Shown here one piece after another: positions 1,258 through 24,244 of a stretch of DNA of 32,000 nt. Source of the DNA: Formosa sp. Hel1_33_131 (GTDB taxonomy: Bacteria > Bacteroidota > Bacteroidia > Flavobacteriales > Flavobacteriaceae); NCBI RefSeq assembly GCF_001735745.1, contig NZ_CP017260.1:1800001-1832000 (forward strand), given 5' to 3'. The translations under genes and the position numbers were made by a program. The stretch's first letter is position 1, and each line of letters starts with the position of its first letter. The notes under the pieces were generated by a model. The model was not told the DNA's origin. It saw only the letters and a program-made list of their open reading frames with translations, and ran no database searches.

Positions 1258-3783
1258 TTAAACTGCTGTTTTTTCCAATACGTCAAATAATGTCGGCATT
1301 GTCATTTCGTTATTAATTGCCTTCACATAGAAAAGCCCGTCTTTGTAGTATTCTGTTTTTAATTCGCAAACAATAGCCTTGCGTTTCATTTTTAGAGATT
1401 GATAAGCTGTTGAGAATAAACCACCGAAAGGATCTGCTACTATATCTCCTTCATTTGAAAAGCGATTGATTATTCTTTCCAAAATATCTAACTGCAGAGG
1501 GCAAATGTGTTTCTCTTTTTTACTAGATACTTGCTTTGCATTTAGTGTTTTTGTTCTTGAGATATCATCCCAAACAAATTCGCTATTAGATACAGGCGGA
1601 ACGGTCATATATTTTCGACTTAATTTTCCATTTTCATCTAATGCCTTTGACAAATCTTTATGCAACTGAAAATCGTATAAGCCTTCTTTTTGGTATTGTT
1701 TCCAAACTTTATGAACTTGCTTCATGTTATGTTTTAGAAGTTCTGAAATTGACATCAATTTATTACCTGATGATTTCCAATAAGCATGCGCATCTAGTTG
1801 CCATAAATCAACTGAATAACCTTCTTTTGTTTTGGTTACAGGCTCATCAGCATAAGCATTATTCATATGCGTTGGTGGTTTTCTAAATAGCAAAACATAT
1901 TCAGGTAAACCAACTCCCATTTTTGTAGCATCCTTGCATTGTTCGCTCCAACCTAATCTGTATGTTTGATTATTTTCTGCAACAACATCGGTAGTAACTG
2001 TTACTTTTCCCATTAAGTAAAAACCATGCTTTTCAAAATGCGCTACGGTTTGTCCGCTAAAATCTTCAATGGTTGTAAAAGATGTTCCATTTTGATACGA
2101 ATAACGGATCCTATCTTTTACATGAATTGCAGCAACGTGTCCTGGTTTAAGTACTCTCAATAAATTTGGAGTCAAATAATCCATTTGTTTAAAAAAGGCT
2201 TGGTTACCATCATTGTGTCCGTAATCATTGTAGTTATCTGAATATTCGTAATGGTCTCCGAATGGAATTGAGGTAACTATCAACCCAACAGAATCATCAT
2301 CTATCTCTTTTTTATCTGCGAATATGATTGTGCTATCATTGTTATAACAAGTGGCATCGCCTATTTGTATTTTATCTCCGTTTTTAAATAATTGTCTTTC
2401 CATTTGTGATTTTATTTGATTAGTGTTTAAGCCATATTCACGTACTAAGGCAATCATTTCTTTTTGAAGTTCATTATGCTTTTTCCATTTCTTCATAAGA
2501 GCTCGTAATACGTGAGCCTCGTTTTGTGTATAAATGATATGAATAGCCACTTCTTTGTCTTGGCCATAGCGAAGTATTCTGTGCGTAGCTTGTATGAAGT
2601 CATTGAATTTATAATCAATACCAACAAAAACAGCTCTACTACAATGCTCTTGGAAATTACACCCTGAGCCTGCGATTTTAGGTTTTGTAGATAGTATTTG
2701 GTAGCGACCTTCACTAAAATCAATTAGTAGTTTTTCTTTTAATTGATTTTTTTGAGAGCCATATACCGATTTTAAGACGATATTATTATCTTCTTTAAAC
2801 TTGGTCTCAATTGCAGTTCTTTCAGCCTCTAAGTGATGCCATAATATCCAGTCAGAGTATTTTGCTTCCTGTTGAATAATGTCGAATGCTTTTTGCACTC
2901 GCACATCAATACTTTCACGTTTTTCTCTTGAGGTATCAATAAGACTTTTAGAATTATCCTTGAATAAAACTATTTTTCCGTGCTTATCAATTACAGGTCC
3001 ATCTTGAATATTATCTACTCGATGTTCAATGATGTTTAGTTTTGGTAAATCATAGCCAGTATCTTCATAACCTAAATCAGATGGTTTATTAATAAATACA
3101 GCCCAAGTAGATACCCATTGCCAAAACTCTTTCTTTTTAGATTCTAGTAATTGTAAATCTCCTGCTTTGGTTGAATTACGTTTGAAAAAGCGAGTTAATA
3201 AATGACCTCTATCTGCTACACCTAAATAATCAGCATAGTTTAATAACTCAATAAAATCATTTGGCGATGGAGTAGCAGTAGCGACAAAACGATATGGAAC
3301 TTTCTTGAAATATTGAAGAATGAAATCGGTAGTTTGTGTTTTTAAATTCCGAAGTATAGAAGCTTCATCAAATGATACTCCAGAGAATTTAGAAGGATCT
3401 ATATCACCTTTGCGGATGCGCTCATAATTGGTTAAATATATCTTGTTTTCGTAGTTTTCAATATTGTCTGTATCTGTAATGTACTCTATCTCATAGCCTG
3501 TATTTAATTTGCCATTATCACGCTTAAACTCACCAACCACACCTAGCGGACAAGCTATTAGAAATGGTTTGTTCTCCTTTTTTATACAGTTTACTGCATT
3601 GATTAGCTGCATAAATGTTTTACCTAAACCAAAAGATGCAAATATTGCTCTACGACCACCTCTCAAGGTCCAGTCGCAAATATCCTTTTGATGTGGCATT
3701 GCTATCTCTGGAATCCAAGTTGGTTCAAATCCAAATGATTCTGATATTATAATTTTACTTTTAAGAAACTTTTCGTAATTCAT
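1258..3783 (-). CDS. Helicase (SF2, DEAS-box) fused to an N4/N6 DNA methyltransferase domain
   Basis: Walker A 'SFGLGKTF', 'SFDEASILRN', 'ATATPSPND' and 'HRILRYGQ' are helicase motifs. The C-terminal part carries 'TSIPFG' (a DPPY-like motif IV) followed by 'DPFGGLFSTAY' (motif I), which is the beta-class order. Start taken at the internal ATG 'MNYEKF' (3783), because the longer 3858 start overlaps the upstream gene by ~100 nt. Confidence 0.75.
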   Translation of the reverse strand: MNYEKFLKSKIIISESFGFEPTWIPEIAMPHQKDICDWTLRGGRRAIFASFGLGKTFMQLINAVNCIKKENKPFLIACPLGVVGEFKRDNGKLNTGYEIEYITDTDNIENYENKIYLTNYERIRKGDIDPSKFSGVSFDEASILRNLKTQTTDFILQYFKKVPYRFVATATPSPNDFIELLNYADYLGVADRGHLLTRFFKRNSTKAGDLQLLESKKKEFWQWVSTWAVFINKPSDLGYEDTGYDLPKLNIIEHRVDNIQDGPVIDKHGKIVLFKDNSKSLIDTSREKRESIDVRVQKAFDIIQQEAKYSDWILWHHLEAERTAIETKFKEDNNIVLKSVYGSQKNQLKEKLLIDFSEGRYQILSTKPKIAGSGCNFQEHCSRAVFVGIDYKFNDFIQATHRILRYGQDKEVAIHIIYTQNEAHVLRALMKKWKKHNELQKEMIALVREYGLNTNQIKSQMERQLFKNGDKIQIGDATCYNNDSTIIFADKKEIDDDSVGLIVTSIPFGDHYEYSDNYNDYGHNDGNQAFFKQMDYLTPNLLRVLKPGHVAAIHVKDRIRYSYQNGTSFTTIEDFSGQTVAHFEKHGFYLMGKVTVTTDVVAENNQTYRLGWSEQCKDATKMGVGLPEYVLLFRKPPTHMNNAYADEPVTKTKEGYSVDLWQLDAHAYWKSSGNKLMSISELLKHNMKQVHKVWKQYQKEGLYDFQLHKDLSKALDENGKLSRKYMTVPPVSNSEFVWDDISRTKTLNAKQVSSKKEKHICPLQLDILERIINRFSNEGDIVADPFGGLFSTAYQSLKMKRKAIVCELKTEYYKDGLFYVKAINNEMTMPTLFDVLEKTAV

Positions 3784-14373: not shown

Positions 14374-15048
14374 ATGAAAGCTTTAGAGATTAGAAATATT
14401 AGAAAAGAGTTAGGTAAAACACAAGCTGAGTTTGCTAAATTATTAGGAGTTTCTAAAAACTCTGTTCAATTATGGGAGACAGAAAAGAGAAATCCAAGCC
14501 CTAGTATGGTTTTTTTAATAAAAGAAACATACAAAAAACACACAGAAAATTTAAAAGAAAACGAATTTGAAAATAAAAATGGAAATAAATTCACTGAACT
14601 TCCAGATGGATCTTTAATGATTCAAGTGCCATTAGTTCCATTTAATGCTTATGCATCTTTTCTAGAAGTCTATGAAGATGAATATAAAGTAAAAAGCAAA
14701 TTTGAAACAACATACTTTACAGTAGATAAAATTGGTAAAGGCAATTATATAGCGTTTACTGTAAAGAATGATAGTATGAATGGTGGAATGTTAGATGATA
14801 CTCCTTCAGGTGCACAAGTTTTAGCTAGAGAACTTGGAAAGCAACATTGGAGAGATGGCTTTAATTCAACTCAATATGGTTGGATTATAATTTGTGAAAC
14901 TGGAATCTTTCATAAAGACATTAAAGGTCCAGATGAAAAAGGGGATATAACTTGTGTTTCAAGAAACAAATCTCCAGAGTTTCCAGAATTCCCTATAAGT
15001 TTAAATGAGGTGCATTCGATTTACAAAGTAATTAAAAGAACATTTTAA
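14374..15048 (+). CDS. cI/LexA-like phage repressor (XRE HTH + S24 peptidase-like C-terminal domain)
   Basis: HTH 'LGKTQAEFAKLLGVSKNSVQLWETEKRNPS'. The C-terminal 'FTVKNDSMNGG' resembles the GDSM serine motif of S24 autopeptidases. Confidence 0.75.
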   Translation: MKALEIRNIRKELGKTQAEFAKLLGVSKNSVQLWETEKRNPSPSMVFLIKETYKKHTENLKENEFENKNGNKFTELPDGSLMIQVPLVPFNAYASFLEVYEDEYKVKSKFETTYFTVDKIGKGNYIAFTVKNDSMNGGMLDDTPSGAQVLARELGKQHWRDGFNSTQYGWIIICETGIFHKDIKGPDEKGDITCVSRNKSPEFPEFPISLNEVHSIYKVIKRTF

Positions 15049-15057
15049 TCAAATAAT

Positions 15058-15591
15058 ATGAGAAGACTAATATTGACTTTTTCATTTATAGTGTTTTGTG
15101 TTGGTTCTATTTTTTCACAAGAATTAATAAAAGAAACTGATGAATTTACAGGAAGAAGTATTGAAAGAACAAAATGGGAGAAGCTTATCTCTAAAGGACT
15201 ACAGCCTACTATTTTAAAATATAGCATTTTAAAAGAAAAGGATTCTGTTTTTTTTATTGGTAGAATTAGAGTAAATGCAGGTAAGACAGTATTTGCAATA
15301 GGCAAGGGGTTTAGAGTAATTTTTAAACTTGATAATGGAGATACTGTAGTGGTAAAGTCAAATAAGCATGTTGTATCAAGGCAAGGTGGTGCAAATGATG
15401 GTGTTTTTGGTTCAAGTATTTATGGTGCAGAAGTGACCTATGTTTTTGATAGTAATGATGATATTGAAAAATTAATAACAAATAAAGTATCTAAAGTGAG
15501 AGTTTACACAGATGAAGGTTATTTTGAAAAAAAGGTTAAGAGTAAAGCTGCTGTTGGTCTTGTTAAGAATTTAAAGTTAATAGTTAAATAA
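15058..15591 (+). CDS. Secreted protein or lipoprotein of unknown function (prophage moron candidate)
   Basis: Signal peptide 'MRRLILTFSFIVFCVGSIFSQ'. Located between the repressor gene and attR. Confidence 0.55.
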   Translation: MRRLILTFSFIVFCVGSIFSQELIKETDEFTGRSIERTKWEKLISKGLQPTILKYSILKEKDSVFFIGRIRVNAGKTVFAIGKGFRVIFKLDNGDTVVVKSNKHVVSRQGGANDGVFGSSIYGAEVTYVFDSNDDIEKLITNKVSKVRVYTDEGYFEKKVKSKAAVGLVKNLKLIVK

Positions 15592-15699
15592 TAATTAGTA
15601 CAGAAATCGGTACACGATTTTTGATTTGATGGGCTTTTTTAAAAGCGGTAATGGTTGATTTTACTGGTTTTTTGATTTTTGAAATAGCGATATTTTAAA

Positions 15700-15741
15700 C
15701 TCATAACCCGAAGGTCACTGGTTCGAGTCCAGTTCCCGCTA
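15700..15741 (+). other. attR: displaced 3' half of an initiator-type tRNA-Met(CAU) gene (fragment, not a functional tRNA)
   Basis: CTCATAA (anticodon loop), CCCGA, AGGTC, ACTGG-TTCGAGT-CCAGT (T arm), TCCCGCT-A. 'CTCATAACCCGAAGGTC' is identical to the E. coli tRNA-fMet anticodon arm as I recall it. The upstream sequence cannot form the anticodon stem, D arm or acceptor 5' strand. Confidence 0.75.
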
Positions 15742-15750
15742 CTAAATAGA

Positions 15751-15781
15751 AAGTCAAAGCTTAATTGTTTTGACTTTTTTT
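15751..15781 (+). terminator. Rho-independent terminator after the tRNA fragment (module Z)
   Basis: AAGTCAAA-gcttaattgt-TTTGACTT followed by a T-run. Confidence 0.6.
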
Positions 15782-15837
15782 GTTAAAAACACTAAGGTTT
15801 TAAAGGACGAGAAGTTTACACTGAGCGGAGTCGAAAT

Positions 15838-15904
15838 GAGTCCAGTTCCCGCTACTAAAACAATAAAACGGTTATACTTTTATAAAGTGTAGCCGTTTTT
15901 TTAT
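15838..15904 (+). repeat. att-like junction J2: second copy of the tRNA 3' end (22 bp) + core CTACTA + module X (terminator)
   Basis: GAGTCCAGTTCCCGCTACTAAA at 15838-15859 equals 15725-15746. The 53 bp at 15852-15904 is identical to 16341-16393 and contains the hairpin ACGGTTATAC/GTGTAGCCGT followed by T7. Confidence 0.8.
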
Positions 15905-15912
15905 ATTTGAGC

Positions 15913-16182
15913 ATGTCAAAAAGAATTTTTTATCCTCTTTTTTTGTTATTAATTCCTTTAATTGGAATGACTATCACTGATGAAATTAACTGGAGTCCAT
16001 TTGATTTCATTATTATGGGTTCTCTACTAATTCTCCTTAGTATTGGAATTAATTTTGCGAGTAATCGTGCAAAGAATTTAAAAAATCGAGTCCTATACAT
16101 TGGAATATTGGTTATAATATTTATGTTAATATGGGCAGAGTTGGCAGTAGGTCTTTTTGGAACTCCTTTTGCAGGTAGTTAA
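15913..16182 (+). CDS. Small integral membrane protein (89 aa, ~3 TM)
   Basis: Hydrophobic segments 'IFYPLFLLLIPLIG', 'FIIMGSLLILLSIGINF' and 'LYIGILVIIFMLIWAELAV'. The ORF-track start at 15907 is a TTG; the ATG at 15913 is preferred. Confidence 0.5.
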   Translation: MSKRIFYPLFLLLIPLIGMTITDEINWSPFDFIIMGSLLILLSIGINFASNRAKNLKNRVLYIGILVIIFMLIWAELAVGLFGTPFAGS

Positions 16183-16314
16183 GTAAACAATCGCTTCAGT
16201 TTTGCTCCAGCTTTGAATAATAGGGTGAGGGGAAATAAAAATCATATTAGTTCAACTTTTCATAATAAGAGTCATTATGTGATGAGTGTTGATTAAGTCT
16301 TTTGGAGTTAGACT

Positions 16315-16393
16315 AATGTTCGATATTTCAATAGAGTTATCTACTAAAACAATAAAACGGTTATACTTTTATAAAGTGTAGCCGTTTTTTTAT
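16315..16393 (+). repeat. att-like junction J3: module B + core CTACTA + module X
   Basis: AATGTTCGATATTTCAATAGAGTTAT-CTACTA; B recurs at 17235-17260 with 3 mismatches. The right side is the exact 53-bp copy of 15852-15904. Confidence 0.8.
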
Positions 16394-16486
16394 CAAAACA
16401 TATTTTTTGTAAATAAAACTTTACATTTTAATTTATTTTGACTACTTTTGTCAAATAAACTTTACATAAATTTAAATAAAACTAAT

Positions 16487-16600
16487 ATGGAAGCTTTGGG
16501 AATTATGGGATTTATCTTTGGATTAGCAGCGTTAGCTCAAGTACTTAAATTAAAAAAAATTGTAGAAACCTTAAAAGATGAGGTTAATGAATTAAAATAA
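16487..16600 (+). CDS. Small TM peptide (37 aa), below the ORF-track cutoff
   Basis: Hand translation gives 'MEALGIMGFIFGLAALAQVLKLKKIVETLKDEVNELK'. Its stop is 1 nt before the ATG of the next gene. Confidence 0.4.
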   Translation: MEALGIMGFIFGLAALAQVLKLKKIVETLKDEVNELK

Positions 16601-16601
16601 T

Positions 16602-16997
16602 ATGATGAAAGAAGAAAGAAAAAAAAGAACGATTCGATTAGCAATTTGGACCTGGACTTGGGTCGCCACATTGGCCGTTGCTACATTTGGACCAAAATTC
16701 ATTTGGGAAAACAGTACACTATGGACAACTTTGGCAATATGCATTAATCTTCTTAATGGAGTTTTAATGATTTTGGCAAACAGATCATTATTTAACCATT
16801 ATGATGAACTTGAACGCAAAATTCACCTTGAATCAATGGGTTTAACTCTTGGCGCAACAGTTGTAGTAGGCTTGAGTTATTCACTTTTGGATCAAACCAA
16901 CCTAATCACATCAAATGCTGAGATCAGTTACCTTATCATGTTCATGTCTGTTACCTACTTCATAACCTTGTTGATTAATAGAAAAAGATATCTATGA
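16602..16997 (+). CDS. Membrane protein (131 aa, ~4 TM) partnered with a small XRE regulator
   Basis: Four hydrophobic helices. ATGA overlap with the downstream HTH gene. Confidence 0.55.
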   Translation: MMKEERKKRTIRLAIWTWTWVATLAVATFGPKFIWENSTLWTTLAICINLLNGVLMILANRSLFNHYDELERKIHLESMGLTLGATVVVGLSYSLLDQTNLITSNAEISYLIMFMSVTYFITLLINRKRYL

Positions 16998-17194
16998 AGA
17001 ATATAGTTCGTGACCTCAGAAAACAAAGAGAACTTACGCAGGAGCAGTTGGGAGAAATAATAGGCGTTTCAAGACAAACAATAAATGCTATTGAGAAAGA
17101 GAAATTTGACCCAAGTTTACCTACTGCATTCAAAATGTCAAAATTGTTTGAAATACCTATTGAGGAATTCTTCTTTTTTGAGAGGTCTAAATAA
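16994..17194 (+). CDS. Small XRE-family HTH transcriptional regulator (66 aa)
   Basis: 'LTQEQLGEIIGVSRQTINAIEKEKFDPSLPTAFKMSKLF' is a canonical HTH_3 pattern. Confidence 0.8.
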   Translation: MKNIVRDLRKQRELTQEQLGEIIGVSRQTINAIEKEKFDPSLPTAFKMSKLFEIPIEEFFFFERSK

Positions 17195-17911: not shown

Positions 17912-18147
17912 AGCAATGATAGTATATTCAAATATACAAAAAAATCAATAAATTTTTGTGTAATAACTAGTGCTGTCATCGGTTTTAATTTTTTCTCAAA
18001 GAGGTTATTTCTTGCGTTAGGGATTGAATCGGAAAGCCCGACCTTTTGGGAATCATCCTGAAAATTAAGATGTTTTGAATTGTTGGGCGTTTAAAGTTAT
18101 CTATAAAGCCTTATATATCTTTTACGAATAAAATGGGATAGCCGCTA

Positions 18148-18582
18148 CTAACTATCTCTCAACGTTTCAACAAACTTAAGATAGTTCGTTTTTCGTTTTC
18201 TTTCGAAAGCCTTGCGATTGTTAGTGACCTGCTTTTTAATTTTAATTTGAGAGGCATTTAAGACAGACTCCTCAATGGAGTCAATAGAAAACAAATATAA
18301 TTCCATGATAATAGGCAGTGCCGAAAGCCCTCTATCCGTTGCGATATATTGCTTGTTTTTTTTGAAGCCTTCAGGATCTAAGAGTTCCAGAAACCCTTCC
18401 TCAACCAAAAACTTTAATCTGTTGGTAAGAATGTTGGTCGCAATTTTTTCTTTAGAATCTAGGAACTCCTTAAACTTAGATTTTTTGTGTAAAATGACAT
18501 CCCTTAATATCAAAAGAGACCATTTGTCTCCTAAAAGATTAATTGAATACGCAATGGCACATGTACGTTCTATTGTTTTCAT
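18148..18582 (-). CDS. HxlR-family winged-helix transcriptional regulator
   Basis: 'CAIAYSINLLGDKWSLLILRDVILHKKSKFKEFL...IATNILTNRLKFLVEEGFL' is a typical HxlR pattern. A -7 box TACCTTTG on the minus strand (18591-18598) lies just upstream of the ATG. Confidence 0.8.
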   Translation of the reverse strand: MKTIERTCAIAYSINLLGDKWSLLILRDVILHKKSKFKEFLDSKEKIATNILTNRLKFLVEEGFLELLDPEGFKKNKQYIATDRGLSALPIIMELYLFSIDSIEESVLNASQIKIKKQVTNNRKAFERKRKTNYLKFVETLRDS

Positions 18583-18715
18583 AGTTTTTGCAAAGGTACT
18601 GTGAATAATTTTTGTTTTAACAGAATGGTATTGTTTATTTCACAATTGTAATATATCTAAACTATTGTGCCACTGTGTGTTCCCTACACTATTGATTACA
18701 TTTTTTTTCACTCCG

Positions 18716-21700
18716 TCAACAACTCTCAACGATTGCAATTTCCGCTTCCGTTAATCCATAGAGTGCATACACCATCGCATCTATTTCTTTGTCTGTTTGG
18801 TCAATTTGTGTTTTAAGCGCCACGGCTTTTTGCTGTTCTTCTAAAAAGTAAGCTTCCAACTCTGCTTTTTTGGATAAGGACAATACCACTTTTTTCTTTT
18901 GCAGCTCCTTTAAAAAGTCTGCATAGGAGAGTGCAAACCAAGTTTCTAGTTTTTTAGAGAGCTTATCGAGGGATTCATATTCTCTGAGCAAAGTTCTTTG
19001 GAATTTTTGAGACAGCTCTTGCAAGTCTTTGTTTAGTGACAGCATTTGGTTTGTACGATCAATAATAAGGTTTGGGTTCTCTGGAATTTCGGGTAGTGGG
19101 AATGGTTTTAAGTAATTAGTTTTAAACCTGAAATAACCACCTCTTAATTCTGTTCCTGTATTTTTTAGAAAAAACCACATTACTTTAGAATTTAAAATCC
19201 CTAAATAAAACTTTTCATCTACTTTAAATTTTTTATTTTTTACAAATGAATAGATTGTAGTTGGATGATAGAATTCTCCTTTTTCATCATAAGTCATATT
19301 ACATCCTAATGAAATTTCTTGGGTCATTATTTTTGGATGAGGGAATTTCTCATGATTTTTTTGATATATATATAAATACCATCCTTTTTCAACATTCATC
19401 TTACCATTTTCTCTACCTTTTATTTCTTTTTCAAAGTGTTTAAGGTATAAATATGTTTTTGGTAAATTTGATTTTATATATTCTTCACTAATTCCAGTTC
19501 CATTTTCCCCATAAGGGAATAGTACATAATAATTGTTACTAAGCTTTTTGTATTTTGAAATTTCATTCCCTTTAATAAACGGTTTTACTAATTCTTTTTC
19601 TATTTCAAAATGATAATCATATTTAGGATTGTAGGCTTCAATAGAACTCCCTTTATCAATGCCTTCAAAAACATACACAGCATCTAAACTTGTTTGCATC
19701 CCAACAAATATTCTATAAAACACATCATTTATAGTAAATGGTTGTTGCTTTAATTTATCAATAGTATCAAATGTTTTTTGGCTTTGCAAATCCCAATTGT
19801 CCTCATTTAGATTTTCACTCAGGATATAATCCCAATCAAATGGATTATTAATCTCCATAGGTTTTATTTTTTTAAACCGTACTTTATCTTTTTCAGACTT
19901 ATCTAAATTTATAATACATGTATAAGTGGATGCATCCGTAAAAACCATTTCAGAACCAAAATGTAAGATGCTTTCAACAGCAGAATTCTCTTTAAAAAAC
20001 TGTCTTATCCCAGCACCAAAATCGGTAACCAAAAATTTATGAGGCAAAATATAAGAGACAACTCCTTTGGCATGAATTAAATCAAAACTCCTTTGCATAA
20101 AAAGCGCATAAATATCATAATTAGCAGTCGCAGATTGATATTTTTCTTCATAATAATCGCACATTTCAGGGTAATGTTTTATCAATCCCTGTTTTCTCAC
20201 ATACGGCGGATTCCCAATCACCACATCAAACCCACCAGCATATTCGGTACGGAAGGCGTGTGCTTCTGAGCAACAGAGCGCGTTAATGGTATTTTGTAAG
20301 GCTTTGGGATGCGGCGGCAATTCGTGCTTATTTCTGTTCGTCTGAATGTATTTTAGGGTATTCAATAACTGTTCCGTACTGCTAACTTCTTTTGGGGGAC
20401 TGTATTTTTGTTGCCACAACGGTTTGTTTTTCCCATCTACTTTCTCAAGGGGCTTAAGCCCCTTGTAAGGCCCCTTGTAACCCCTCTTGTGAAAATACGA
20501 AGTCCGTCCTTTTATCTTTTGCATAATCGCAGGAATCTCCTCTATAGCGCACACCAATAACAAATGGATATGGTCCCCACAAATGTTATAGGCAAGTATA
20601 TTGAGTTGGTTCTCTTTTGCAACATCCGCAATGATTTGGGTCATCTGCACATCATCTTCAGGAGTAAAATAAATCACATGAGGTTTTGTGCTTCCTTCCC
20701 GTCGTTCTCTAACTTTGTACTTCTCCATTCTTTTTGAAGTCCGACTGTCGTGGATCGTTGTTGTAATATGGTATGGTTTTTTATGTTTTTCTTTAAAAAT
20801 ACTTGGAAATTCCTCTTCCCATTTAAAAGCTTTGTCGCCCGCAACTTTGGGATCGTCAATCAAAGAATTGCCACATTTTATATTGTGATTCAGGCTGTTA
20901 AGTTTACGGTTGGGTTGCGCCGTTCGCAACCACAACGAGAGTTTGGCAATCTCTACAGATTCTTCATTCAGATCCACTCCAAATAAATTATTTTCTAGGA
21001 TGCTATTTTCTACATCACTGAGCATTAAGGTGTCATTATTGTACTTAGCAGACAGTTCATCCACATACCGATGTTCTGCAATCAGAAAATTAAGGGCTTC
21101 GTTTAGAAATGCTCCCGAGCCACAAGCAGGATCACAAATGGTCAGTTGTAACAACCACGTCCTGTAATCGTTCAGTGTTTCCAGTCGTTTTCTACTTCGT
21201 TGTTTGGCGTGTTGATAGGTCTCATCGCTAATGTCCAGCTCTATTTTTTTCTCCGTACAAAGTTTGCCTACCGTGTTTTCTACAATGTATTTGGTGATGT
21301 ATTTTGGGGTATAAAACACACCGTCTTTTTTGCGTTTGGTGGTCGTTTTATCAACCGATTGCCCTTCTAATTGGGCTTTCACTTCATCCAGTTCATTGAG
21401 GGAATTTTCAAAAATATGACCTAAAATATTGACGTCCACTTCACTTTCAAAATCATATTCTGAGAGTTTTAGAGTATGGTTGTAAAGCAACGCATCATCA
21501 ATCGTAATATTGGCTAAAATTGTATCGGGTTTAAAAAGCCCGCCGTTGTATGCAAACACATCGTATTGTTTCCCTTTAAAGCCCGTGTTTAGATACCCAA
21601 AGTATTTTTTAAAACGATCGTATAAAGGTGTGTAGGCATCTAAATCTTTTAACTTTTTCCATTGCTCTAAAATAAGTCTTACAGAATTTGGAGGCAGTAA

Positions 21701-22435
21701 ATTCCGGTCTTCAGAAAAGAATAAAAACAAAAATCGATCTAATAATTTTTGAGATTTTTTAAATAATTCTAAGGCTTCAAATTGGGGATTGAGGTGAGTT
21801 AAATTTTGAAACAACTCTCGTTTAAACAGAGAGTAATCTTTATACAACTGTTTGGTGATGTTTTCTTCTTGACTTAAAGACTCTTCTTTTAATTTTTTAG
21901 GAAGGTTGTTTTTAATATTCTCAAAAGCGATGCATACATACAAGAGTTGAAACACTTCTTCGCTAAGCGTAAACAGATTAAACTCTATATGTTCAATCGC
22001 ATTATCGATGTAAAATCGGAGTTTCTCAAAGTTAGAAGTTATGACATACACACAATCTTGCTGATTGTTTTTATACCCAAACGCTTGGGGTTCTACTTTT
22101 GCTAAATCCGTGGTGTTGGTGCCTTTGAGTTCGATAACACCCACAACGGTGCCATCAATAATAATTCCACCATCTGCTTTTTTGCTGTCTTTGGCATTTT
22201 TAAGTTCAGTGGTAAGATTGAAATTGGTTTCGGGGTTTAGGGTGTATCCAAAAATAGTGACAAACAGATCTCTTAAAAAACCTTCTTGGTACTGTTCCTC
22301 TTTAGCATTCCGAATATTTTCTTGGATTTCAGGATTAAAAAAATGGGCTTTATAAGCGATCCATTTTTCTGAAATGAGGGTCTTATTTTGAGTCTTGAGC
22401 TGTCTAGTGACAACCGTATTTTGAAATAGGGGCAT
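18716..22435 (-). CDS. Single-chain type IIG (MmeI/Eco57I-like) restriction-modification enzyme with an embedded HUH/Y1 transposase-like domain
   Basis: N-terminal PD-ExK ('ADGGIIIDG...VIELKG'). N6A methyltransferase motif I 'ICDPACGSGAFL' (aa 433-444) and motif IV 'VVIGNPPYV' (aa 738-746). TaqI_C-like specificity region ('FVGMQTSLDAVYVF', 'LRGGYFRFKTNYLKPFPLP') and C-terminal 'VYALYGLTEAEIAIVE'. The HUH insert occupies aa 551-733. Confidence 0.85.
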   Translation of the reverse strand: MPLFQNTVVTRQLKTQNKTLISEKWIAYKAHFFNPEIQENIRNAKEEQYQEGFLRDLFVTIFGYTLNPETNFNLTTELKNAKDSKKADGGIIIDGTVVGVIELKGTNTTDLAKVEPQAFGYKNNQQDCVYVITSNFEKLRFYIDNAIEHIEFNLFTLSEEVFQLLYVCIAFENIKNNLPKKLKEESLSQEENITKQLYKDYSLFKRELFQNLTHLNPQFEALELFKKSQKLLDRFLFLFFSEDRNLLPPNSVRLILEQWKKLKDLDAYTPLYDRFKKYFGYLNTGFKGKQYDVFAYNGGLFKPDTILANITIDDALLYNHTLKLSEYDFESEVDVNILGHIFENSLNELDEVKAQLEGQSVDKTTTKRKKDGVFYTPKYITKYIVENTVGKLCTEKKIELDISDETYQHAKQRSRKRLETLNDYRTWLLQLTICDPACGSGAFLNEALNFLIAEHRYVDELSAKYNNDTLMLSDVENSILENNLFGVDLNEESVEIAKLSLWLRTAQPNRKLNSLNHNIKCGNSLIDDPKVAGDKAFKWEEEFPSIFKEKHKKPYHITTTIHDSRTSKRMEKYKVRERREGSTKPHVIYFTPEDDVQMTQIIADVAKENQLNILAYNICGDHIHLLLVCAIEEIPAIMQKIKGRTSYFHKRGYKGPYKGLKPLEKVDGKNKPLWQQKYSPPKEVSSTEQLLNTLKYIQTNRNKHELPPHPKALQNTINALCCSEAHAFRTEYAGGFDVVIGNPPYVRKQGLIKHYPEMCDYYEEKYQSATANYDIYALFMQRSFDLIHAKGVVSYILPHKFLVTDFGAGIRQFFKENSAVESILHFGSEMVFTDASTYTCIINLDKSEKDKVRFKKIKPMEINNPFDWDYILSENLNEDNWDLQSQKTFDTIDKLKQQPFTINDVFYRIFVGMQTSLDAVYVFEGIDKGSSIEAYNPKYDYHFEIEKELVKPFIKGNEISKYKKLSNNYYVLFPYGENGTGISEEYIKSNLPKTYLYLKHFEKEIKGRENGKMNVEKGWYLYIYQKNHEKFPHPKIMTQEISLGCNMTYDEKGEFYHPTTIYSFVKNKKFKVDEKFYLGILNSKVMWFFLKNTGTELRGGYFRFKTNYLKPFPLPEIPENPNLIIDRTNQMLSLNKDLQELSQKFQRTLLREYESLDKLSKKLETWFALSYADFLKELQKKKVVLSLSKKAELEAYFLEEQQKAVALKTQIDQTDKEIDAMVYALYGLTEAEIAIVESC
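20237..20785 (-). other. In-frame IS200/IS605-type Y1 (HUH) transposase-like domain inside the methyltransferase core
   Basis: 'YHITTT', 'LAYNICGDHIHLLLV' (HUH = H622-I-H624, nt 20564-20572), 'IMQKIKGRTSYF', 'LWQQKY' and 'LKYIQTNRNKH' (Tyr696, nt 20348-20350) occur in the canonical order of Y1 transposases. Confidence 0.75.
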
Positions 22436-22461
22436 AGTAGGTTATTAGCAATCTGGGTATT

Positions 22462-22469
22462 CAAATTTA
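22462..22469 (-). promoter_or_regulatory. Candidate Bacteroidota -7 promoter box for the R-M gene
   Basis: The minus strand reads TAAATTTG (TAnnTTTG consensus), 27 nt upstream of the ATG at 22435. Confidence 0.35.
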
Positions 22470-22671
22470 AAAAAAGAACTGGACTTATCGTTTTTTCTTC
22501 TAATAAAAATGAAATTATTTTCATCCAACCTACTGTCAGTGTGTGCGGTACTCTCTACAGATACTGTATTTTTCTCTCAAAATTAAAAATCAAACCAGAG
22601 TTTGATACAGCGTTTAGTTGAATTGTTTTTGTGTTCAATTGCCTTTTAAACAATTCCAAGGAAACTTTAGT

Positions 22672-22679
22672 TACCTTTG
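22672..22679 (+). promoter_or_regulatory. Candidate -7 promoter box for the FAD oxidoreductase gene (near-leaderless)
   Basis: TACCTTTG ends 6 nt before the ATG at 22685. Confidence 0.35.
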
Positions 22680-22684
22680 CCACA

Positions 22685-24244
22685 ATGAGTGTATTCGTAC
22701 AAATTACCATAAAACCAGCACAACAAAAAGACACCGATTTTATACTAAAATCGAGTCTTTTTAAGGCCAAACTGCGTTCAGCAGATATTGTCGATTGGCG
22801 CATCCGAAAACGTTCGATTGATGCCCGAAAGGCAACGATTAAACTCAACTTACAAATCGAATTTTGGTTGCTTGGTGAAACCCGAACACAACCCCAATCT
22901 TTTGTACCACAAGCGGTGCACTCAAAACCCCAAATTGCGATCATAGGTGCAGGGCCTGCAGGGCTCTATGCCGCTTTGCGTGCTATCGAAGCAGGCTTGA
23001 AACCCATAGTATTTGAGCGCGGAAAAGATGTGCGTGCCAGACGTCGCGATTTAGCAGCGATCAACAAAGAACAGATTGTCAACCCCGAATCAAACTATTG
23101 TTTTGGAGAAGGTGGCGCAGGGACTTACTCTGACGGAAAATTATATACACGCTCCAAAAAACGGGGCAATGTCCTCAAAGCCCTCGAATGGTTTGTGCAT
23201 TTTGGAGCGTCGGAAGACATTTTGGTGGAAGCCCATCCACATATAGGAACCAATAAATTACCGGCCATTATTACCGCCATGCGGGAAGCGATTATCGAAG
23301 CAGGCGGGGAGGTACATTTCAACGCCAAACTGACCGATATTCAAATTGAAGACAACGCCATCAAAGATCTAAAAATTAATGACACTGAATGGAAACCCTT
23401 TGAAAATGTCGTCTTAGCGACGGGGCATTCTGCCAGAGATATATTTTATTTACTCCATAAAAAAGGGGTGCACTTACAAGCGAAAGCATTTGCGTTGGGC
23501 GTTCGGGTGGAGCATCCTCAACATTTAATTGATAAAATTCAATACCACGGGGATGTTGAAAATCCGTATTTGCCTCCAGCCTCTTACAGTCTGGTCGATC
23601 AAATTGACGGGAAGGGCGTCTATTCGTTTTGTATGTGTCCGGGTGGAATTATTGCGCCTTGTGCCACGGCTCAAGAAGAAGTAGTCACCAACGGATGGAG
23701 CCCAAGCAAGCGAAATAATCCCTATGCAAATTCGGGGATTGTGGTGAGTGTAGAACCTAAAGATTTACCCAACTATTCAGAAAAAGATCCTTTTGTATGT
23801 CTTGATTTTCAGAAAAAAGTGGAACGTGATTGTTGGGAAGTGGCTGGAAAAACACAGCAAGTACCTGCACAACGCATGATCGATTTTGTGGAAGGAAAAT
23901 TATCGAAAGACTTCCCAAAAACGTCTTACCAACCCGGCATCGTTTCGGTAGACCTTAATACAGTTTTACCTCCAATGATTTCTAAACGGTTGCGAAAAGC
24001 ATTTTCTGTATATGGAAAAAAAATGAAAGGCTATTTCACTAATGAAGCCGTATTGCATGCGCCAGAAAGTCGGACATCCTCACCCATATCCATTCCTAGA
24101 AATTTAGAAACCTTAGAGCATGTCAACGTCAAAGGCTTGTATCCGTGTGGCGAAGGCGCAGGGTATGCAGGTGGTATTATTTCTGCCGCTATTGATGGGA
24201 TTAATTGCGTAGATGCGATAAGTGCGAAACTCACCAGACTCTAA
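22685..24244 (+). CDS. FAD-dependent oxidoreductase (COG2509-like uncharacterised FAD dehydrogenase)
   Basis: Dinucleotide-binding motif 'IAIIGAGPAGLYAALRAIEAGLKPIVFERG'; 'GEGGAGTYSDGKL'; C-terminal 'CGEGAGYAGGI'. The ORF-track start at 22631 is a GTG; the ATG at 22685 ('MSVFVQITIKP') is preferred. Confidence 0.8.
   Translation: MSVFVQITIKPAQQKDTDFILKSSLFKAKLRSADIVDWRIRKRSIDARKATIKLNLQIEFWLLGETRTQPQSFVPQAVHSKPQIAIIGAGPAGLYAALRAIEAGLKPIVFERGKDVRARRRDLAAINKEQIVNPESNYCFGEGGAGTYSDGKLYTRSKKRGNVLKALEWFVHFGASEDILVEAHPHIGTNKLPAIITAMREAIIEAGGEVHFNAKLTDIQIEDNAIKDLKINDTEWKPFENVVLATGHSARDIFYLLHKKGVHLQAKAFALGVRVEHPQHLIDKIQYHGDVENPYLPPASYSLVDQIDGKGVYSFCMCPGGIIAPCATAQEEVVTNGWSPSKRNNPYANSGIVVSVEPKDLPNYSEKDPFVCLDFQKKVERDCWEVAGKTQQVPAQRMIDFVEGKLSKDFPKTSYQPGIVSVDLNTVLPPMISKRLRKAFSVYGKKMKGYFTNEAVLHAPESRTSSPISIPRNLETLEHVNVKGLYPCGEGAGYAGGIISAAIDGINCVDAISAKLTRL

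What the first reader, a model, noticed from the sequence alone, without database searches (positions are those of the whole stretch)
20237..20785. Complete HUH (Y1, IS200/IS605-type) transposase domain inserted in-frame inside the methyltransferase core of a single-chain type IIG restriction-modification enzyme
The 1239-aa ORF (18716-22435, minus) has every expected part of an MmeI/Eco57I-like R-M-S fusion. These are a PD-ExK nuclease (D89...E102-L-K104), N6A methyltransferase motif I (DPACGSGAFL) and motif IV (NPPY), a TaqI_C-like specificity region and the usual C-terminal helix. From my recollection of this family, the block 'F-W-E-E-FP-x-F' is followed within about ten residues by 'GGFDVVIGNPPY'. 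Here 183 aa (aa 551-733) intervene. They read as a full Y1 transposase fold in canonical order: YHITTT, GDHIHLLLV (HUH), KGRTSYF, LWQQKY and the catalytic-tyrosine helix LKYIQTN. There are no stops or frameshifts across either junction, and I see no IS-end hairpins flanking the insert. It therefore looks like a selected domain fusion rather than a recent IS hit. One polypeptide would carry three nucleic-acid-processing active sites: a dsDNA nuclease, an adenine methyltransferase and an ssDNA HUH nuclease. I am not aware of a described R-M or defence enzyme with this architecture. Speculative roles include targeting ssDNA invaders (conjugative transfer strands, ssDNA phage, rolling-circle plasmids), covalent 5'-phosphotyrosine tethering to DNA, or a domesticated REP-associated (RAYT-like) activity. 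The gene sits in a small islet with a toxin-antitoxin remnant next to a tRNA integration hotspot.
Basis: partly seen in the sequence, partly recalled or inferred. Interest (0 to 1): 0.85.

Follow-up and report, generated by a model that had tools for sequence, protein, structure and literature searches.

The report
Transposase domain nested inside restriction enzyme
An intact single-chain restriction-modification enzyme carries, in frame in a loop of its methyltransferase core, a complete and conserved HUH tyrosine "transposase" domain with its own DNA palindrome; the same layout occurs in hundreds of Bacteroidota-group species and I found no description of it.

Summary
ORF 18716-22435 (-) is an intact type IIG R-M enzyme (PADLOC REase_MTase_IIG, E=1e-283). 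Residues 549-733 form a complete Y1 HUH domain (Pfam Y1_Tnp 41 bits; the top 30 fold matches are all Y1 transposases).

It is not an IS hit or a pseudogene. A genome scan found relatives of the domain in 324 places. Of the best 80, 77 lie in the same loop of the same enzyme family. HUH and Tyr are invariant and dN/dS is about 0.19.

- The domain belongs to a RAYT-like lineage with free-standing relatives 59-62% identical. Those relatives are flanked by a 20-26 nt perfect palindrome, (A)CAAGGG...CCCTTG(T).
- The same palindrome sits in frame inside the insert in 79/80 loci (window 20446-20465, coding KGLKPL). Size-matched control segments have one in 1/135 cases.
- Signatures of extra copies in the host protein occur only when the insert is present (7/42 against 0/78).

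Presence is patchy. Alleles 93-99% identical at the same chromosomal locus differ by one codon-exact 648-nt indel.

My best reading is a captured palindrome-tnpA-palindrome element that persists as an exchangeable, probably catalytically active nested module. What it does for the enzyme is unproven. The tRNA-hotspot claim is wrong and the toxin-antitoxin claim is unsupported.

The parts
18716..22435 (-). Intact 1239-aa single-chain type IIG (MmeI/Eco57I-like) restriction-modification-specificity gene that hosts the insert
   Evidence: ORF. Pfam Eco57I, N6_Mtase, MmeI_Mtase and TaqI_C. PADLOC REase_MTase_IIG E=1.1e-283. Fold matches to CamA, PglX/BrxX, MmeI 5hr4, BpuSI and DrdV.
22121..22183 (-). 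PD-ExK nuclease motif (D88 ... E102-L-K104)
   Evidence: Positions. The motif is present in every homologue whose sequence reaches this region, with or without the insert (one is N-terminally truncated).
21104..21133 (-). MTase motif I, DPACGSGAFL (aa 435-444)
   Evidence: Invariant columns in alignment A2.
20792..20884 (-). MTase motif III (NIKCGNSL, aa 518-525) and the short helix FKWEEEFPSIFK (aa 537-548) just upstream of the insertion point
   Evidence: Insert-free homologues run ...EFPxxF-x-[K/N]-GGFDVV.
20237..20791 (-). Nested Y1 HUH (RAYT-like) domain, aa 549-733
   Evidence: Pfam Y1_Tnp 41.4 bits. NCBIfam REP_Tyr_transpos 4e-11, below its cutoff. Y1 fold. Boundaries from 42 insert-bearing and 78 insert-free homologues.
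20552..20578 (-). HUH motif GDHIHLLLV (D621, H622, H624)
   Evidence: DHxH is present in all 38 distinct inserts that were found without using this motif.
20324..20356 (-). Catalytic-tyrosine helix LKYIQTNRNKH (Y696, N700, K703, H704)
   Evidence: Y is present in 110/111 fused inserts; the exception is cut by a contig end.
20446..20465 (.). Perfect 20-nt palindrome CAAGGGGCTTAAGCCCCTTG, read in frame as KGLKPL, in the low-confidence loop between helix alpha-2 and strand beta-4 of the Y1 fold
   Evidence: Present in 79/80 related loci against 1/135 control segments. The loop has pLDDT below 50.
20466..20489 (.). Two partial tandem copies of one palindrome arm (on the coding strand TTACAAGGGGC / TTACAAGAGGGG), coding HKRGYKGPY
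   Evidence: Read directly from the sequence.
20201..20236 (-). MTase motif IV strand GGFDVVIGNPPY (aa 734-745), immediately after the insert
   Evidence: Invariant in alignment A2.
19049..20197 (-). Exchangeable specificity cassette (MTase C-terminal half plus TaqI_C-type target-recognition region, aa 747-1129)
   Evidence: The window and the syntenic strains L212 and L213 are 97-100% identical on both sides but only 50-60% identical here. GC is 0.27-0.28 against about 0.40 upstream.
18716..19048 (-). Conserved C-terminal helical tail (from QMLSLNKDL) and stop codon

Best explanation
The gene encodes a working-looking MmeI/Eco57I-type type IIG enzyme: a PD-ExK nuclease, a gamma-class N6-adenine methyltransferase, a TaqI_C-type specificity region and a C-terminal helical tail. 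A complete RAYT-like Y1 HUH endonuclease is nested in the surface loop just before strand beta-4 / motif IV (NPPY).

The nested module descends from small "palindrome - tnpA - palindrome" elements of the REPtron / IS200-like kind. These still exist free-standing in related genomes. An element of this kind landed in frame in this loop, and today it behaves as a discrete, exchangeable module of the gene.

Shown here:
- The fold and the catalytic residues are intact and under purifying selection.
- The module always brings a cognate 20-26 nt perfect palindrome inside its own coding sequence.
- Signatures of extra in-frame copies of that palindrome appear in permissive loops of the host protein only when the module is present.
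- Closely related alleles differ by codon-exact presence or absence of the module.

Inferred:
- The Y1 domain binds the palindrome when it is extruded as a single-stranded DNA hairpin, and cleaves and rejoins next to it through a 5'-phosphotyrosine link. This is what solved TnpA_REP and IS608 enzymes do.
- That activity copies the palindrome locally, and may mediate precise gain and loss of the module.
- The host enzyme keeps methylating and cutting. The argument is that an active nuclease without methylation would be lethal, and the nuclease motif is kept.

On this reading the module is a long-term, semi-selfish resident or a domesticated RAYT. It is not a third defence nuclease designed for the enzyme.
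For: Identity
-.

Spread and fixed position
- 42 of the top 120 homologues carry the insert with identical boundaries.
- A genome scan found 324 places encoding a relative. Of the best 80, 76 lie in a long (about 1160-1380 aa) reading frame, and L079 makes 77 once TGA is read as Gly.
- All 10 mid-length library representatives tested have the same Eco57I / MmeI_Mtase host, and 8 of them also match TaqI_C.

Selection
- DHxH is present in 38/38 independently found inserts. Tyr is present in 110/111.
- dN/dS is 0.19, against 0.075-0.094 for the host domains.

Free-standing relatives
- They are 59-62% identical and colinear from start to stop.
- They sit between housekeeping genes and are flanked by the palindrome.

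A cassette caught in the act
- L116 reads host - KGLKPL palindrome - Y1 - KGLKPL palindrome - host, all in frame.

The palindrome
- It is present in 79/80 inserts and 1/135 controls.
- 15 centre variants all remain palindromic, and two reading frames are used.
- Density is 1.64/kb in the insert, 0.15/kb in the rest of the gene and 0.027/kb outside.
- Peptides coded by the palindrome occur outside the insert in 7/42 insert-bearing proteins and 0/78 insert-free proteins.

Modularity
- Explaining the insert's distribution needs 22 changes on the host N-terminal tree.
- The syntenic pair L082 / L083 is 93-99% identical with one clean 648-nt in-frame indel.
- Host and insert identities correlate weakly: Mantel r=0.31, Spearman 0.17.
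- In L018 / L077 the host N-terminal part is 93% identical and the insert 45%, with the break at the left junction.
- In the Y1 tree, free-standing and fused forms interleave.

Precedent
- In-frame REPs inside tnpA_REP genes of subclass 2.4 are described in PMC6006769.
Against: - No biochemical or in vivo activity is shown. Everything about cleavage, palindrome copying and excision is inferred.
- In the window copy, and in the main fused clade generally, there are no palindromes at the two junctions. The canonical IS200/IS605 end architecture is therefore missing, and it is unclear what would be excised.
- Patchy presence and precise "indels" can also arise by ordinary homologous recombination between insert-bearing and insert-free alleles. 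This gene family visibly recombines.
- The window holds only one copy of the palindrome in 32 kb, so there is no genome-wide REP family here.
- The trees are neighbour-joining without support values.
- dS is near saturation.
- The 80 loci were fished with a peptide pattern that contains DH[IVM]H, so HUH invariance among them is partly circular.
- Many sequences come from MAGs.
- Strong conservation over hundreds of species fits a host-beneficial role as well as it fits selfish persistence.
Confidence: 0.6

Rival explanations
1. Exapted third catalytic activity for defence. The HUH domain gives the R-M enzyme an ssDNA nicking or covalent-tethering function directed at invaders such as conjugative transfer strands, ssDNA phages or rolling-circle plasmids.
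For: - Catalytic residues are invariant and dN/dS is about 0.19.
- In every fused case examined the domain sits in one enzyme family at one position.
- The nuclease and methyltransferase motifs are kept alongside it.
- The architecture spans several phyla, including a TGA-recoded CPR genome.
Against: - Near-identical alleles at the same locus do without the insert. The distribution needs 22 state changes.
- The domain comes with a specific self-encoded palindrome and has free-standing, palindrome-flanked relatives. That is typical of REPtron elements and not of defence modules.
- Palindrome signatures in the host protein occur only where the insert is present, which points to action on its own DNA.
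- No plasmid or phage copies were found, and the gene has no defence-system partners beside it.
Confidence: 0.2
2. Built-in recombination initiator. The Y1 domain nicks its own gene at the internal palindrome, as a rolling-circle Rep protein does at its origin. This stimulates exchange of the specificity cassette that starts 12 codons downstream of the insert, and so diversifies target recognition.
For: - The swapped 1.18-kb cassette begins right after GNPPYV, just downstream of the insert. Co-occurring strains that are otherwise 97-100% identical carry unrelated cassettes.
- At least four C-terminal modules are joined to a nearly identical N-terminus-plus-Y1.
- In 14 palindrome occurrences among 62 genes, further palindromes lie downstream of the cassette at aa 1155-1182.
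Against: - Insert-free relatives show the same cassette variability.
- No palindrome sits at either cassette edge in the window, L212 or L213.
- The edges coincide with highly conserved DNA (the NPPY region and the C-terminal tail), which is enough for homologous recombination.
- The downstream palindromes are 20-45 aa beyond the cassette edge and are present in a minority of loci.
Confidence: 0.12
3. Inert passenger. A dead transposase remnant is tolerated in a permissive loop, and only folding is under constraint.
For: - The loop tolerates other insertions: a 75-aa unrelated filler in P0083 and +8 aa in P0045 and P0081.
- The insert evolves about twice as fast as the host domains.
Against: - HUH, Tyr and six further motif residues are invariant or nearly so across inserts only 30-60% identical.
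- dN/dS of 0.19 is far below 1.
- The palindrome is kept in 79/80 loci with compensatory changes.
Confidence: 0.05
4. IS-disrupted pseudogene or assembly artefact.
For: A few related loci have shortened reading frames (L002, L013, L015, L020, L039, L049).
Against: - The window ORF is uninterrupted.
- A 100% identical protein is on record independently (P0001).
- The same in-frame architecture is found in dozens of isolates and MAGs from independent projects.
Confidence: 0.02

Closest known systems
MmeI / Eco57I-family type IIG (IIL) single-chain restriction-modification enzymes (e.g. MmeI, PDB 5HR4; BpuSI 3S1S; DrdV 7LO5)
   Same: - N-terminal PD-ExK nuclease, helical spacer, gamma-class N6A methyltransferase (motifs I and IV), TaqI_C-type specificity region and C-terminal helices.
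- A solitary gene.
- An exchangeable specificity cassette.
   Different: - No characterised member that I could find has a Y1 HUH domain between motifs III and IV.
- The best stretch of the PADLOC type IIG match (aa 1-548) stops at position 554 of a 1066-position profile, just before the insert.
- The host protein is only 13-14% identical to MmeI in the structural alignment.
REP-associated tyrosine transposases (RAYT / TnpA_REP, E. coli structure 4ER8) and their REPtrons, especially subclass 2.4 of Quentin et al. 2018 (PMC6006769), which has REPs inserted in frame in the tnpA_REP gene
   Same: - Y1 HUH fold, with Asn at Y+4 as in class 2.
- Single-copy behaviour.
- Free-standing relatives flanked by a cognate palindrome.
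[quoted passage not shown]
   Different: - The motifs are DH[IVMA]H / LWxQK / YIxxNRxKH, not NH[IFV]H / WQ / YIxNNP.
- The NCBIfam REP_Tyr_transpos score of 43 is below its cutoff of 80.
- The palindrome is a short perfect palindrome without a GTAG-type foot, and it is not dispersed in this window.
- Above all, the protein is nested inside another enzyme.
IS200/IS605 transposase TnpA (IS608, ISDra2)
   Same: - These are the best sequence and fold matches among solved structures.
- The chemistry suggested, ssDNA hairpin recognition with precise excision and insertion without target duplication, would fit the codon-exact indel.
   Different: - Y+4 is Asn, not Gln.
- There are no subterminal hairpins at the ends of the window copy.
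- There is no tnpB partner and no multicopy behaviour.
In-frame selfish insertions in proteins: inteins with homing endonucleases, and Rickettsia palindromic elements (from my own knowledge, not tested here)
   Same: A mobile-element-derived sequence sits in frame in a host protein. It has a patchy distribution among close alleles and precise boundaries. Short palindromic elements are translated as loop peptides.
   Different: - There is no protein splicing: the insert ends ...EYA|GG, and I saw no Cys/Ser/Thr nucleophile or His-Asn junction on reading it.
- The inserted unit is an HUH enzyme and stays in the mature protein.
BREX PglX / BrxX methyltransferase
   Same: Related methyltransferase and specificity architecture (NCBIfam BREX_1_MTaseX 5e-39; fold matches 8Q56, 8C45 and 9EWZ).
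   Different: - Scores are far below the NCBIfam cutoffs (134 against 500).
- The PD-ExK motif is present.
- No BREX partner genes lie beside it.

Membership tests
Type IIG (MmeI/Eco57I-like) R-M-S enzyme | N-terminal PD-(D/E)xK nuclease motif | tested here: met
   D88 ... E102-L-K104. Present in every homologue whose sequence covers the region. The Pfam MmeI_N match is weak (E=0.005, below its gathering score).
Type IIG (MmeI/Eco57I-like) R-M-S enzyme | Gamma-class N6-adenine methyltransferase with motif I (xPxCGxGxF) and motif IV (NPPY) | tested here: met
   DPACGSGAFL at 435-444 and NPPY at 742-745. Pfam Eco57I 5.5e-42, N6_Mtase and MmeI_Mtase.
Type IIG (MmeI/Eco57I-like) R-M-S enzyme | C-terminal target-recognition region in the same polypeptide, with no separate M or S gene | tested here: met
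   TaqI_C 2.2e-14 at aa 951-1114. The neighbours are an HxlR regulator and an FAD-dependent protein. PADLOC REase_MTase_IIG 1.1e-283.
Type IIG (MmeI/Eco57I-like) R-M-S enzyme | Demonstrated site-specific methylation and cleavage at a fixed distance | not testable with these tools
   Needs methylome data and enzyme assays.
Y1 HUH endonuclease superfamily (Pfam Y1_Tnp PF01797) | Profile match above the curated threshold | tested here: met
   41.4 bits against a gathering score of 23 for the insert alone.
Y1 HUH endonuclease superfamily (Pfam Y1_Tnp PF01797) | HUH metal-binding motif and a single catalytic Tyr on the C-terminal helix | tested here: met
   H622-I-H624 and Y696, invariant across homologues.
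Y1 HUH endonuclease superfamily (Pfam Y1_Tnp PF01797) | The beta-alpha-beta-beta-alpha-beta-alpha fold of TnpA | tested here: met
   Model with pLDDT 80.5. The top 30 PDB matches are all Y1 transposases, E from 9e-6 to 1e-3.
IS200/IS605 insertion sequence | Subterminal hairpins at both ends of the element | tested here: not met
   No hairpin or repeat at either junction in the window. Palindromes at both junctions were seen only in the distant relative L116.
IS200/IS605 insertion sequence | Y motif Y-x-x-x-Q, and several near-identical copies per genome | tested here: not met
   The Y motif is YIQTN, with Asn at Y+4. There is one copy in the 32-kb window. NCBIfam transpos_IS200 scores 34, below its cutoff of 55. 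Genome-wide copy number could not be tested.
RAYT / TnpA_REP (REPtron) | Curated family model (NCBIfam REP_Tyr_transpos) and the YIxxNP motif | tested here: not met
   It is the best NCBIfam family for the insert but scores 43 against a cutoff of 80. The motif is YIxxNR, with Pro replaced by Arg in 108/111.
RAYT / TnpA_REP (REPtron) | Gene flanked by cognate REP hairpins | tested here: inconclusive
   Met for the free-standing relatives (L001, L019, L084, L087, L089) and for the fused L116. In the window the palindrome is only inside the domain.
RAYT / TnpA_REP (REPtron) | Cognate REPs dispersed in many copies over the genome | tested here: inconclusive
   One copy in the 32-kb window, and 0.027/kb in 330 kb of flanking DNA at related loci. 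The identical palindrome is nonetheless dispersed, and in tandem arrays, in other organisms' contigs. Whole genomes could not be scanned.
Intein | Splicing junction residues (N-terminal Cys/Ser, C-terminal His-Asn followed by Cys/Ser/Thr) | tested here: not met
   The junctions read ...IFK|EKHKK... and ...TEYA|GGFD.... This was judged by reading the sequence only.

The most novel reading that the evidence does not exclude
The nested Y1 module may be an active, non-splicing, intein-like mobile element. On this reading it is a REPtron that uses HUH single-strand chemistry to insert itself into, and excise itself from, one specific loop of type IIG methyltransferase genes, exactly at codon boundaries. 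It would ride a horizontally mobile restriction gene while leaving that gene functional.

It may also nick its own gene at the internal palindrome and so drive exchange of the adjacent specificity cassette.

Either way, it would give the first functional handle on what RAYT-type domesticated transposases do.
Probability: 0.25. Interest if true: 0.9.

Novelty: new variant of a known kind. Interest (0 to 1): 0.72.

Why it matters
- What RAYT-like Y1 enzymes and their palindromes do for the cell is, to my knowledge, still unresolved; the main survey notes there is no formal evidence that they move on their own (PMC6006769). Here a RAYT-like enzyme is physically built into a restriction-modification enzyme in many lineages. 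This is a strong guilt-by-association link between REP/RAYT biology and DNA methylation or restriction, and it can be tested with cultured strains.
- It is a natural example of a nucleic-acid enzyme tolerated inside the catalytic core of a methyltransferase. It therefore marks a permissive insertion site for engineering MmeI-type enzymes.
- If the module moves by itself, it would be a new way for a transposon to hide: in frame, as a protein domain, without splicing.
- For annotation, these proteins are currently named only "Eco57I ... domain-containing protein" or given a double COG label. The palindrome-coded xGxxPL loops explain the odd low-complexity stretches in them.

Tried and rejected
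- tRNA integration hotspot: ARAGORN finds no tRNA or tmRNA in the window.
- Terminal hairpins, inverted repeats or target duplications at the insert ends in the window: none. The syntenic filled and empty pair shows at most 2 nt of microhomology.
- Known RNA families in 18000-23000: only two sub-threshold snoRNA chance hits.
- Dispersed REP family in this genome: only one copy of the palindrome pattern in 32 kb, which is not significant on its own (14/100 shuffles give at least one). The significance comes from the comparative data.
- Plasmid or phage carriage: plasmid hits cover only the methyltransferase flank (21% of the query), and there are no phage hits.
- BREX membership: scores are far below the cutoffs and there are no partner genes.
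- "Palindromes mark the cassette edges": they do not. They sit in the Y1 loops and 20-45 aa beyond the right edge.
- L079 first looked like a free-standing copy. It is a fused gene in a genome that reads TGA as Gly.
- Folding the palindrome region as ssDNA gave an ambiguous minimum-energy structure, because three left arms compete for one right arm (z = -2.05).
- Spatial position of the Y1 domain relative to the DNA cleft: the tools return no coordinates. The statement that it emerges at the N-terminal end of beta-4, away from the NPPY loop, rests on textbook topology only.
- Literature: eight searches, plus reading PMC6006769, found no description of the fusion. REBASE could not be consulted.


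Full report

Yes. The minus-strand ORF 18716-22435 is uninterrupted and encodes 1239 aa.

Pfam finds Eco57I (E=5.5e-42), N6_Mtase, MmeI_Mtase and TaqI_C. Between the two halves of the Eco57I match it finds Y1_Tnp at aa 589-698. The insert alone scores 41.4 bits against a gathering score of 23.

NCBIfam's best matches for the insert are REP_Tyr_transpos (4e-11) and transpos_IS200 (3e-8). Both are below their curated cutoffs.

The PADLOC model REase_MTase_IIG (PDLC03609) scores 1.1e-283. Its best stretch covers aa 1-548 and stops at position 554 of a 1066-position profile.

A profile of the insert family hits the solved Y1 transposases ISDra2, IS608 and TnpA_REP. An AlphaFold model of the insert (pLDDT 80.5, pTM 0.78) has Y1 HUH transposases as its top 30 PDB fold matches.

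A model of aa 40-1239 (pLDDT 82) shows the insert as a discrete beta-alpha-beta-beta-alpha-(beta)-alpha unit. The rest resembles CamA, PglX/BrxX, M.BseCI, MmeI, BpuSI and DrdV.

The nuclease Asp is D88, not D89.

**2. It is a family, not a singleton.**

Among the 120 best homologues of the whole protein, 42 carry the insert and 78 do not.

- The insert-free proteins have exactly 22 residues across this region. Three are exceptions: P0083 has a 75-aa unrelated filler, and P0045 and P0081 have 8 extra residues.
- The boundaries are the same everywhere. Filled alleles read ...EFPxxF-x | EKxKKxYHITT ... AFxxEY-x | GGFDVVIGNPPY. Empty alleles read ...EFPxxF-x-[K/N]-GGFDVV.
- The PD-ExK motif is kept in both groups.

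A scan of one genome per species (185,579 species) found 324 places that encode a relative of the insert. Of the best 80, 76 lie inside a long reading frame with 550-600 aa upstream and 430-530 aa downstream.

These loci come mostly from Flavobacteriaceae. Others come from Bacteroidales, Cytophagales, Chitinophagaceae, Ignavibacteria, Melioribacteraceae, Chlorobaculum and a Marinimicrobia MAG.

One apparent free-standing copy, in a Gracilibacteria MAG (L079), is in fact fused. The first Gly of GGFDV is a TGA codon, as expected for that lineage's genetic code.

An exhaustive profile search of 1.84 billion cluster representatives gives 197 clusters at E<=1e-30. About half are long proteins. All ten mid-length ones tested have the same Eco57I / MmeI_Mtase host, and eight of them also match TaqI_C.

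**3. Is it under selection?**

In the 38 distinct inserts found through the host protein, and so independently of the HUH motif, DHxH and the Tyr helix Y[IV]xxN[RKL]xKH are always present. Also conserved are HDSRTSxRM, KxKG and LWxQK.

Across 111 fused inserts, D621, H622 and H624 are 111/111 and Y696 is 110/111; the one exception is cut by a contig end. The 80 loci were retrieved with a peptide pattern that includes DH[IVM]H, so only the Tyr-helix count is independent for them.

Nei-Gojobori dN/dS over 54 pairs is 0.19 for the insert, against 0.094 and 0.075 for the two host N-terminal regions. dS is 1.2-1.7, close to saturation, so these are rough values.

An inert passenger and a pseudogene are therefore both unlikely.

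**4. Where the domain comes from.**

Searching with the insert alone finds free-standing proteins of 165-186 aa. They are 59-62% identical and colinear from the first to the last residue, for example P0123 of Polaribacter batillariae.

These are real separate genes sitting between housekeeping genes:

- ilvA and an aldehyde dehydrogenase (L001, with the same position in L019 and L029)
- Band_7 and a DUF3686 AAA protein (L084-86)
- upstream of Sua5 (L087)
- inside the nuo operon, between nuoD and nuoE (L089/90)

.

Each is flanked by a short perfect palindrome, and usually also interrupted by one. In L019, ACAAGGGGTTTAAACCCCTTGT lies 17 nt before the ATG, inside the gene, and 3 nt after the stop. 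L087 has six copies. This is the arrangement known for RAYT genes and their REPs.

Quentin et al. 2018 (PMC6006769) already described REPs inserted in frame within tnpA_REP genes of their subclass 2.4. That paper never mentions a methyltransferase or restriction fusion.

**5. The palindrome is part of the insert.**

In the window the coding strand reads ...CACAAGAGGGGTTACAAGGGGCCTTACAAGGGGCTTAAGCCCCTTGAGAAA... That is a perfect 20-nt palindrome (window 20446-20465, coding KGLKPL) preceded by two partial copies of one arm. It lies in the low-confidence loop between helix alpha-2 and strand beta-4 of the Y1 fold.

On its own this is not significant in one window. The comparative picture is striking:

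- 69/80 inserts hold a perfect palindrome of at least 18 nt, and 10 more have one mismatch. Size-matched flanking segments have one in 1/135 cases.
- Fifteen different centres occur (GCTTAAGC, GTTTAAAC, AGCATGCT, GATTAATC and others). All keep the symmetry, which means changes on both arms.
- The palindrome is read in two different frames (KGxKPL or RGxxPL). Selection therefore acts on the nucleic acid, not on the peptide.
- It occupies two alternative slots in the domain: window aa 650-665 in 40 of 62 aligned genes, and aa 710-711 in 18.
- Density is 1.64/kb in the insert, 0.15/kb in the rest of the gene and 0.027/kb outside.
- The extra copies sit in loops at window aa 93-95, 353-362, 411, 1155-1157 and 1182.
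- Peptide signatures of such copies outside the insert occur in 7/42 insert-bearing proteins and 0/78 insert-free proteins. A hand-computed Fisher test gives about 4.5e-4, not corrected for relatedness.

This dependence in cis is the best indirect sign that the Y1 domain acts on this palindrome in vivo.

The identical 20-mer is also a dispersed repeat, sometimes in tandem arrays, in unrelated metagenomic contigs without any nearby Y1 (137 of 144 copies).

One of those contigs, L116, holds a distant Eco57I-type gene (about 30% identical) in which the Y1 domain is bracketed by the palindrome at both junctions, all in frame. It reads ...EFPAIF-PKWN-KGLKPL-VDREIDADLWFVTF...HAERWGDDGSVN-KGLKPL-VPGKPQLVSDASPLVEYNS-GFDTVIGNPPY. 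This looks like a palindrome-tnpA-palindrome cassette caught inside the loop.

**6. The insert behaves as an exchangeable module.**

- On a neighbour-joining tree of the host N-terminal half, the insert's presence needs 22 changes of state.
- Several insert-bearing proteins are 88-98% identical to insert-free ones in the flanking regions.
- The clearest case is L082 against L083. They have the same neighbouring genes and gene DNA 93-99% identical near the indel. A single 648-nt indel falls exactly on codon boundaries, and no divergent tract lies next to it.
- That insert is only 31-35% identical to other fused inserts. It groups with free-standing proteins P0158, P0161 and P0162.
- In the Y1 tree the basal lineages are free-standing. 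One large clade is almost entirely fused, and a free-standing Polaribacter clade is nested within it. There have therefore been several transitions between the two states.
- Host and insert identities are only weakly correlated: Mantel r=0.31, Spearman 0.17.
- In L018 against L077 the host N-terminal part is 93% identical and the insert 45%. The break falls at the left junction.

Two mechanisms can give this pattern, and I cannot separate them:

- HUH-catalysed precise excision and insertion.
- Ordinary homologous recombination between alleles, which is clearly frequent in this gene (section 7).

**7. Context and other modules.**

The gene is solitary. It lies between an FAD-dependent protein and an HxlR regulator.

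Two co-occurring strains from one metagenome (L212, L213) have the same neighbourhood and 97-100% identical DNA. The exception is a 1.18-kb cassette (aa 747-1129) that is unrelated in sequence. Its left edge lies right after GNPPYV, 12 codons past the insert. Its right edge is at QMLSLNKDL. Insert-free relatives show the same cassette variability, so the Y1 domain is not required for it.

No copy of the fused gene was found in the plasmid or phage collections.

**8. What it most likely is and does.**

Settled:
- It is an intact type IIG enzyme with a nested, selected, complete Y1 HUH domain.
- The domain is of a RAYT-like lineage that carries its own palindrome.

Inferred:
- The domain recognises that palindrome as a single-stranded hairpin and cuts and rejoins next to it.
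- This explains the palindrome copies in the host gene, and possibly the precise gain and loss of the module.
- The host enzyme remains active.

Rival readings, all given with the results that would refute them:
- A true defence function.
- A role as a recombination initiator for the specificity cassette.
- An inert passenger.
- A pseudogene.

**9. Novelty.**

Every part belongs to a known family, and in-frame REPs in RAYT genes are published. The nesting of a RAYT-like enzyme in the methyltransferase core of a type IIG enzyme, its breadth, and the behaviour of the palindrome in the host gene were not found in the searchable literature. Automatic annotation has noticed both domains without comment (JGI names).

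I rate it a new variant of a known kind.

**Limits**
- REBASE was not searchable.
- The trees are distance-based without support values.
- Many sequences are from MAGs.
- No coordinates of the models were available.

Noticed in passing
window 19049-20197 (compare L212 10240-11410 and L213): The specificity cassette (MTase C-terminal half plus TaqI_C region) is swapped between strains that are otherwise 97-100% identical at this locus. Two of these strains come from the same metagenome sample. GC in the cassette is 0.27-0.28 against about 0.40 in the upstream part of the gene.
   Followed up: yes
L079 2685-3254 and flanks: In a Gracilibacteria MAG the fused gene is interrupted only by TGA codons, which that lineage reads as Gly (the first G of GGFDV is TGA). 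The architecture therefore also exists in a recoded CPR genome.
   Followed up: partly
L131 9344-9587; L171 11666-11890; L179 28-218; L117 8948-9039: The exact window palindrome CAAGGGGCTTAAGCCCCTTG forms tandem arrays with periods of 28, 41, 57 and 36 nt in metagenomic contigs that have no Y1 gene nearby. Some contigs look cyanobacterial (a HIP1 site is seen in L117). It is a widespread REP-like repeat outside this gene family.
   Followed up: partly
L089 5001-5525; L090 760-1284: A free-standing member of the Y1 family sits inside the NADH dehydrogenase (nuo) operon, between nuoD and nuoE. It is co-oriented with the operon and has the palindrome upstream and inside.
   Followed up: no
L087 472-1291: Six copies of the palindrome surround one free-standing Y1 gene. 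The 3' end of the gene plus its palindrome is also duplicated in tandem, with a unit of about 80 nt.
   Followed up: no
L211 1549-5472 (palindrome at 3485): A distant Eco57I-like protein without any Y1 domain carries an in-frame copy of the same palindrome (peptide TRGLSPL) in an expanded region upstream of the FNWQVEFPHIF helix.
   Followed up: no
P0083 (homologue), region aligned to window aa 549-733: A 75-aa filler with no detectable Y1 similarity occupies the same loop. P0045 and P0081 have 8 extra residues there. The loop is a general insertion-tolerant site.
   Followed up: no
window 14374-17194: Small HTH genes lie near the enzyme: a 224-aa HTH_3 protein with a weak, sub-threshold MqsA-antitoxin-like match (14374-15048), and a 66-aa HTH_3 protein (16994-17194) whose start overlaps the end of an unannotated 131-aa ORF (16602-16997). 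There is no recognisable toxin and no tRNA gene in the window.
   Followed up: partly
L002, L013, L015, L020, L039, L049: In these related loci the reading frame that carries the Y1 domain ends early (784-948 aa). Palindromes lie beyond the frame end in L013, L015 and L020 only. These are possible decaying copies or MAG sequencing errors.
   Followed up: no
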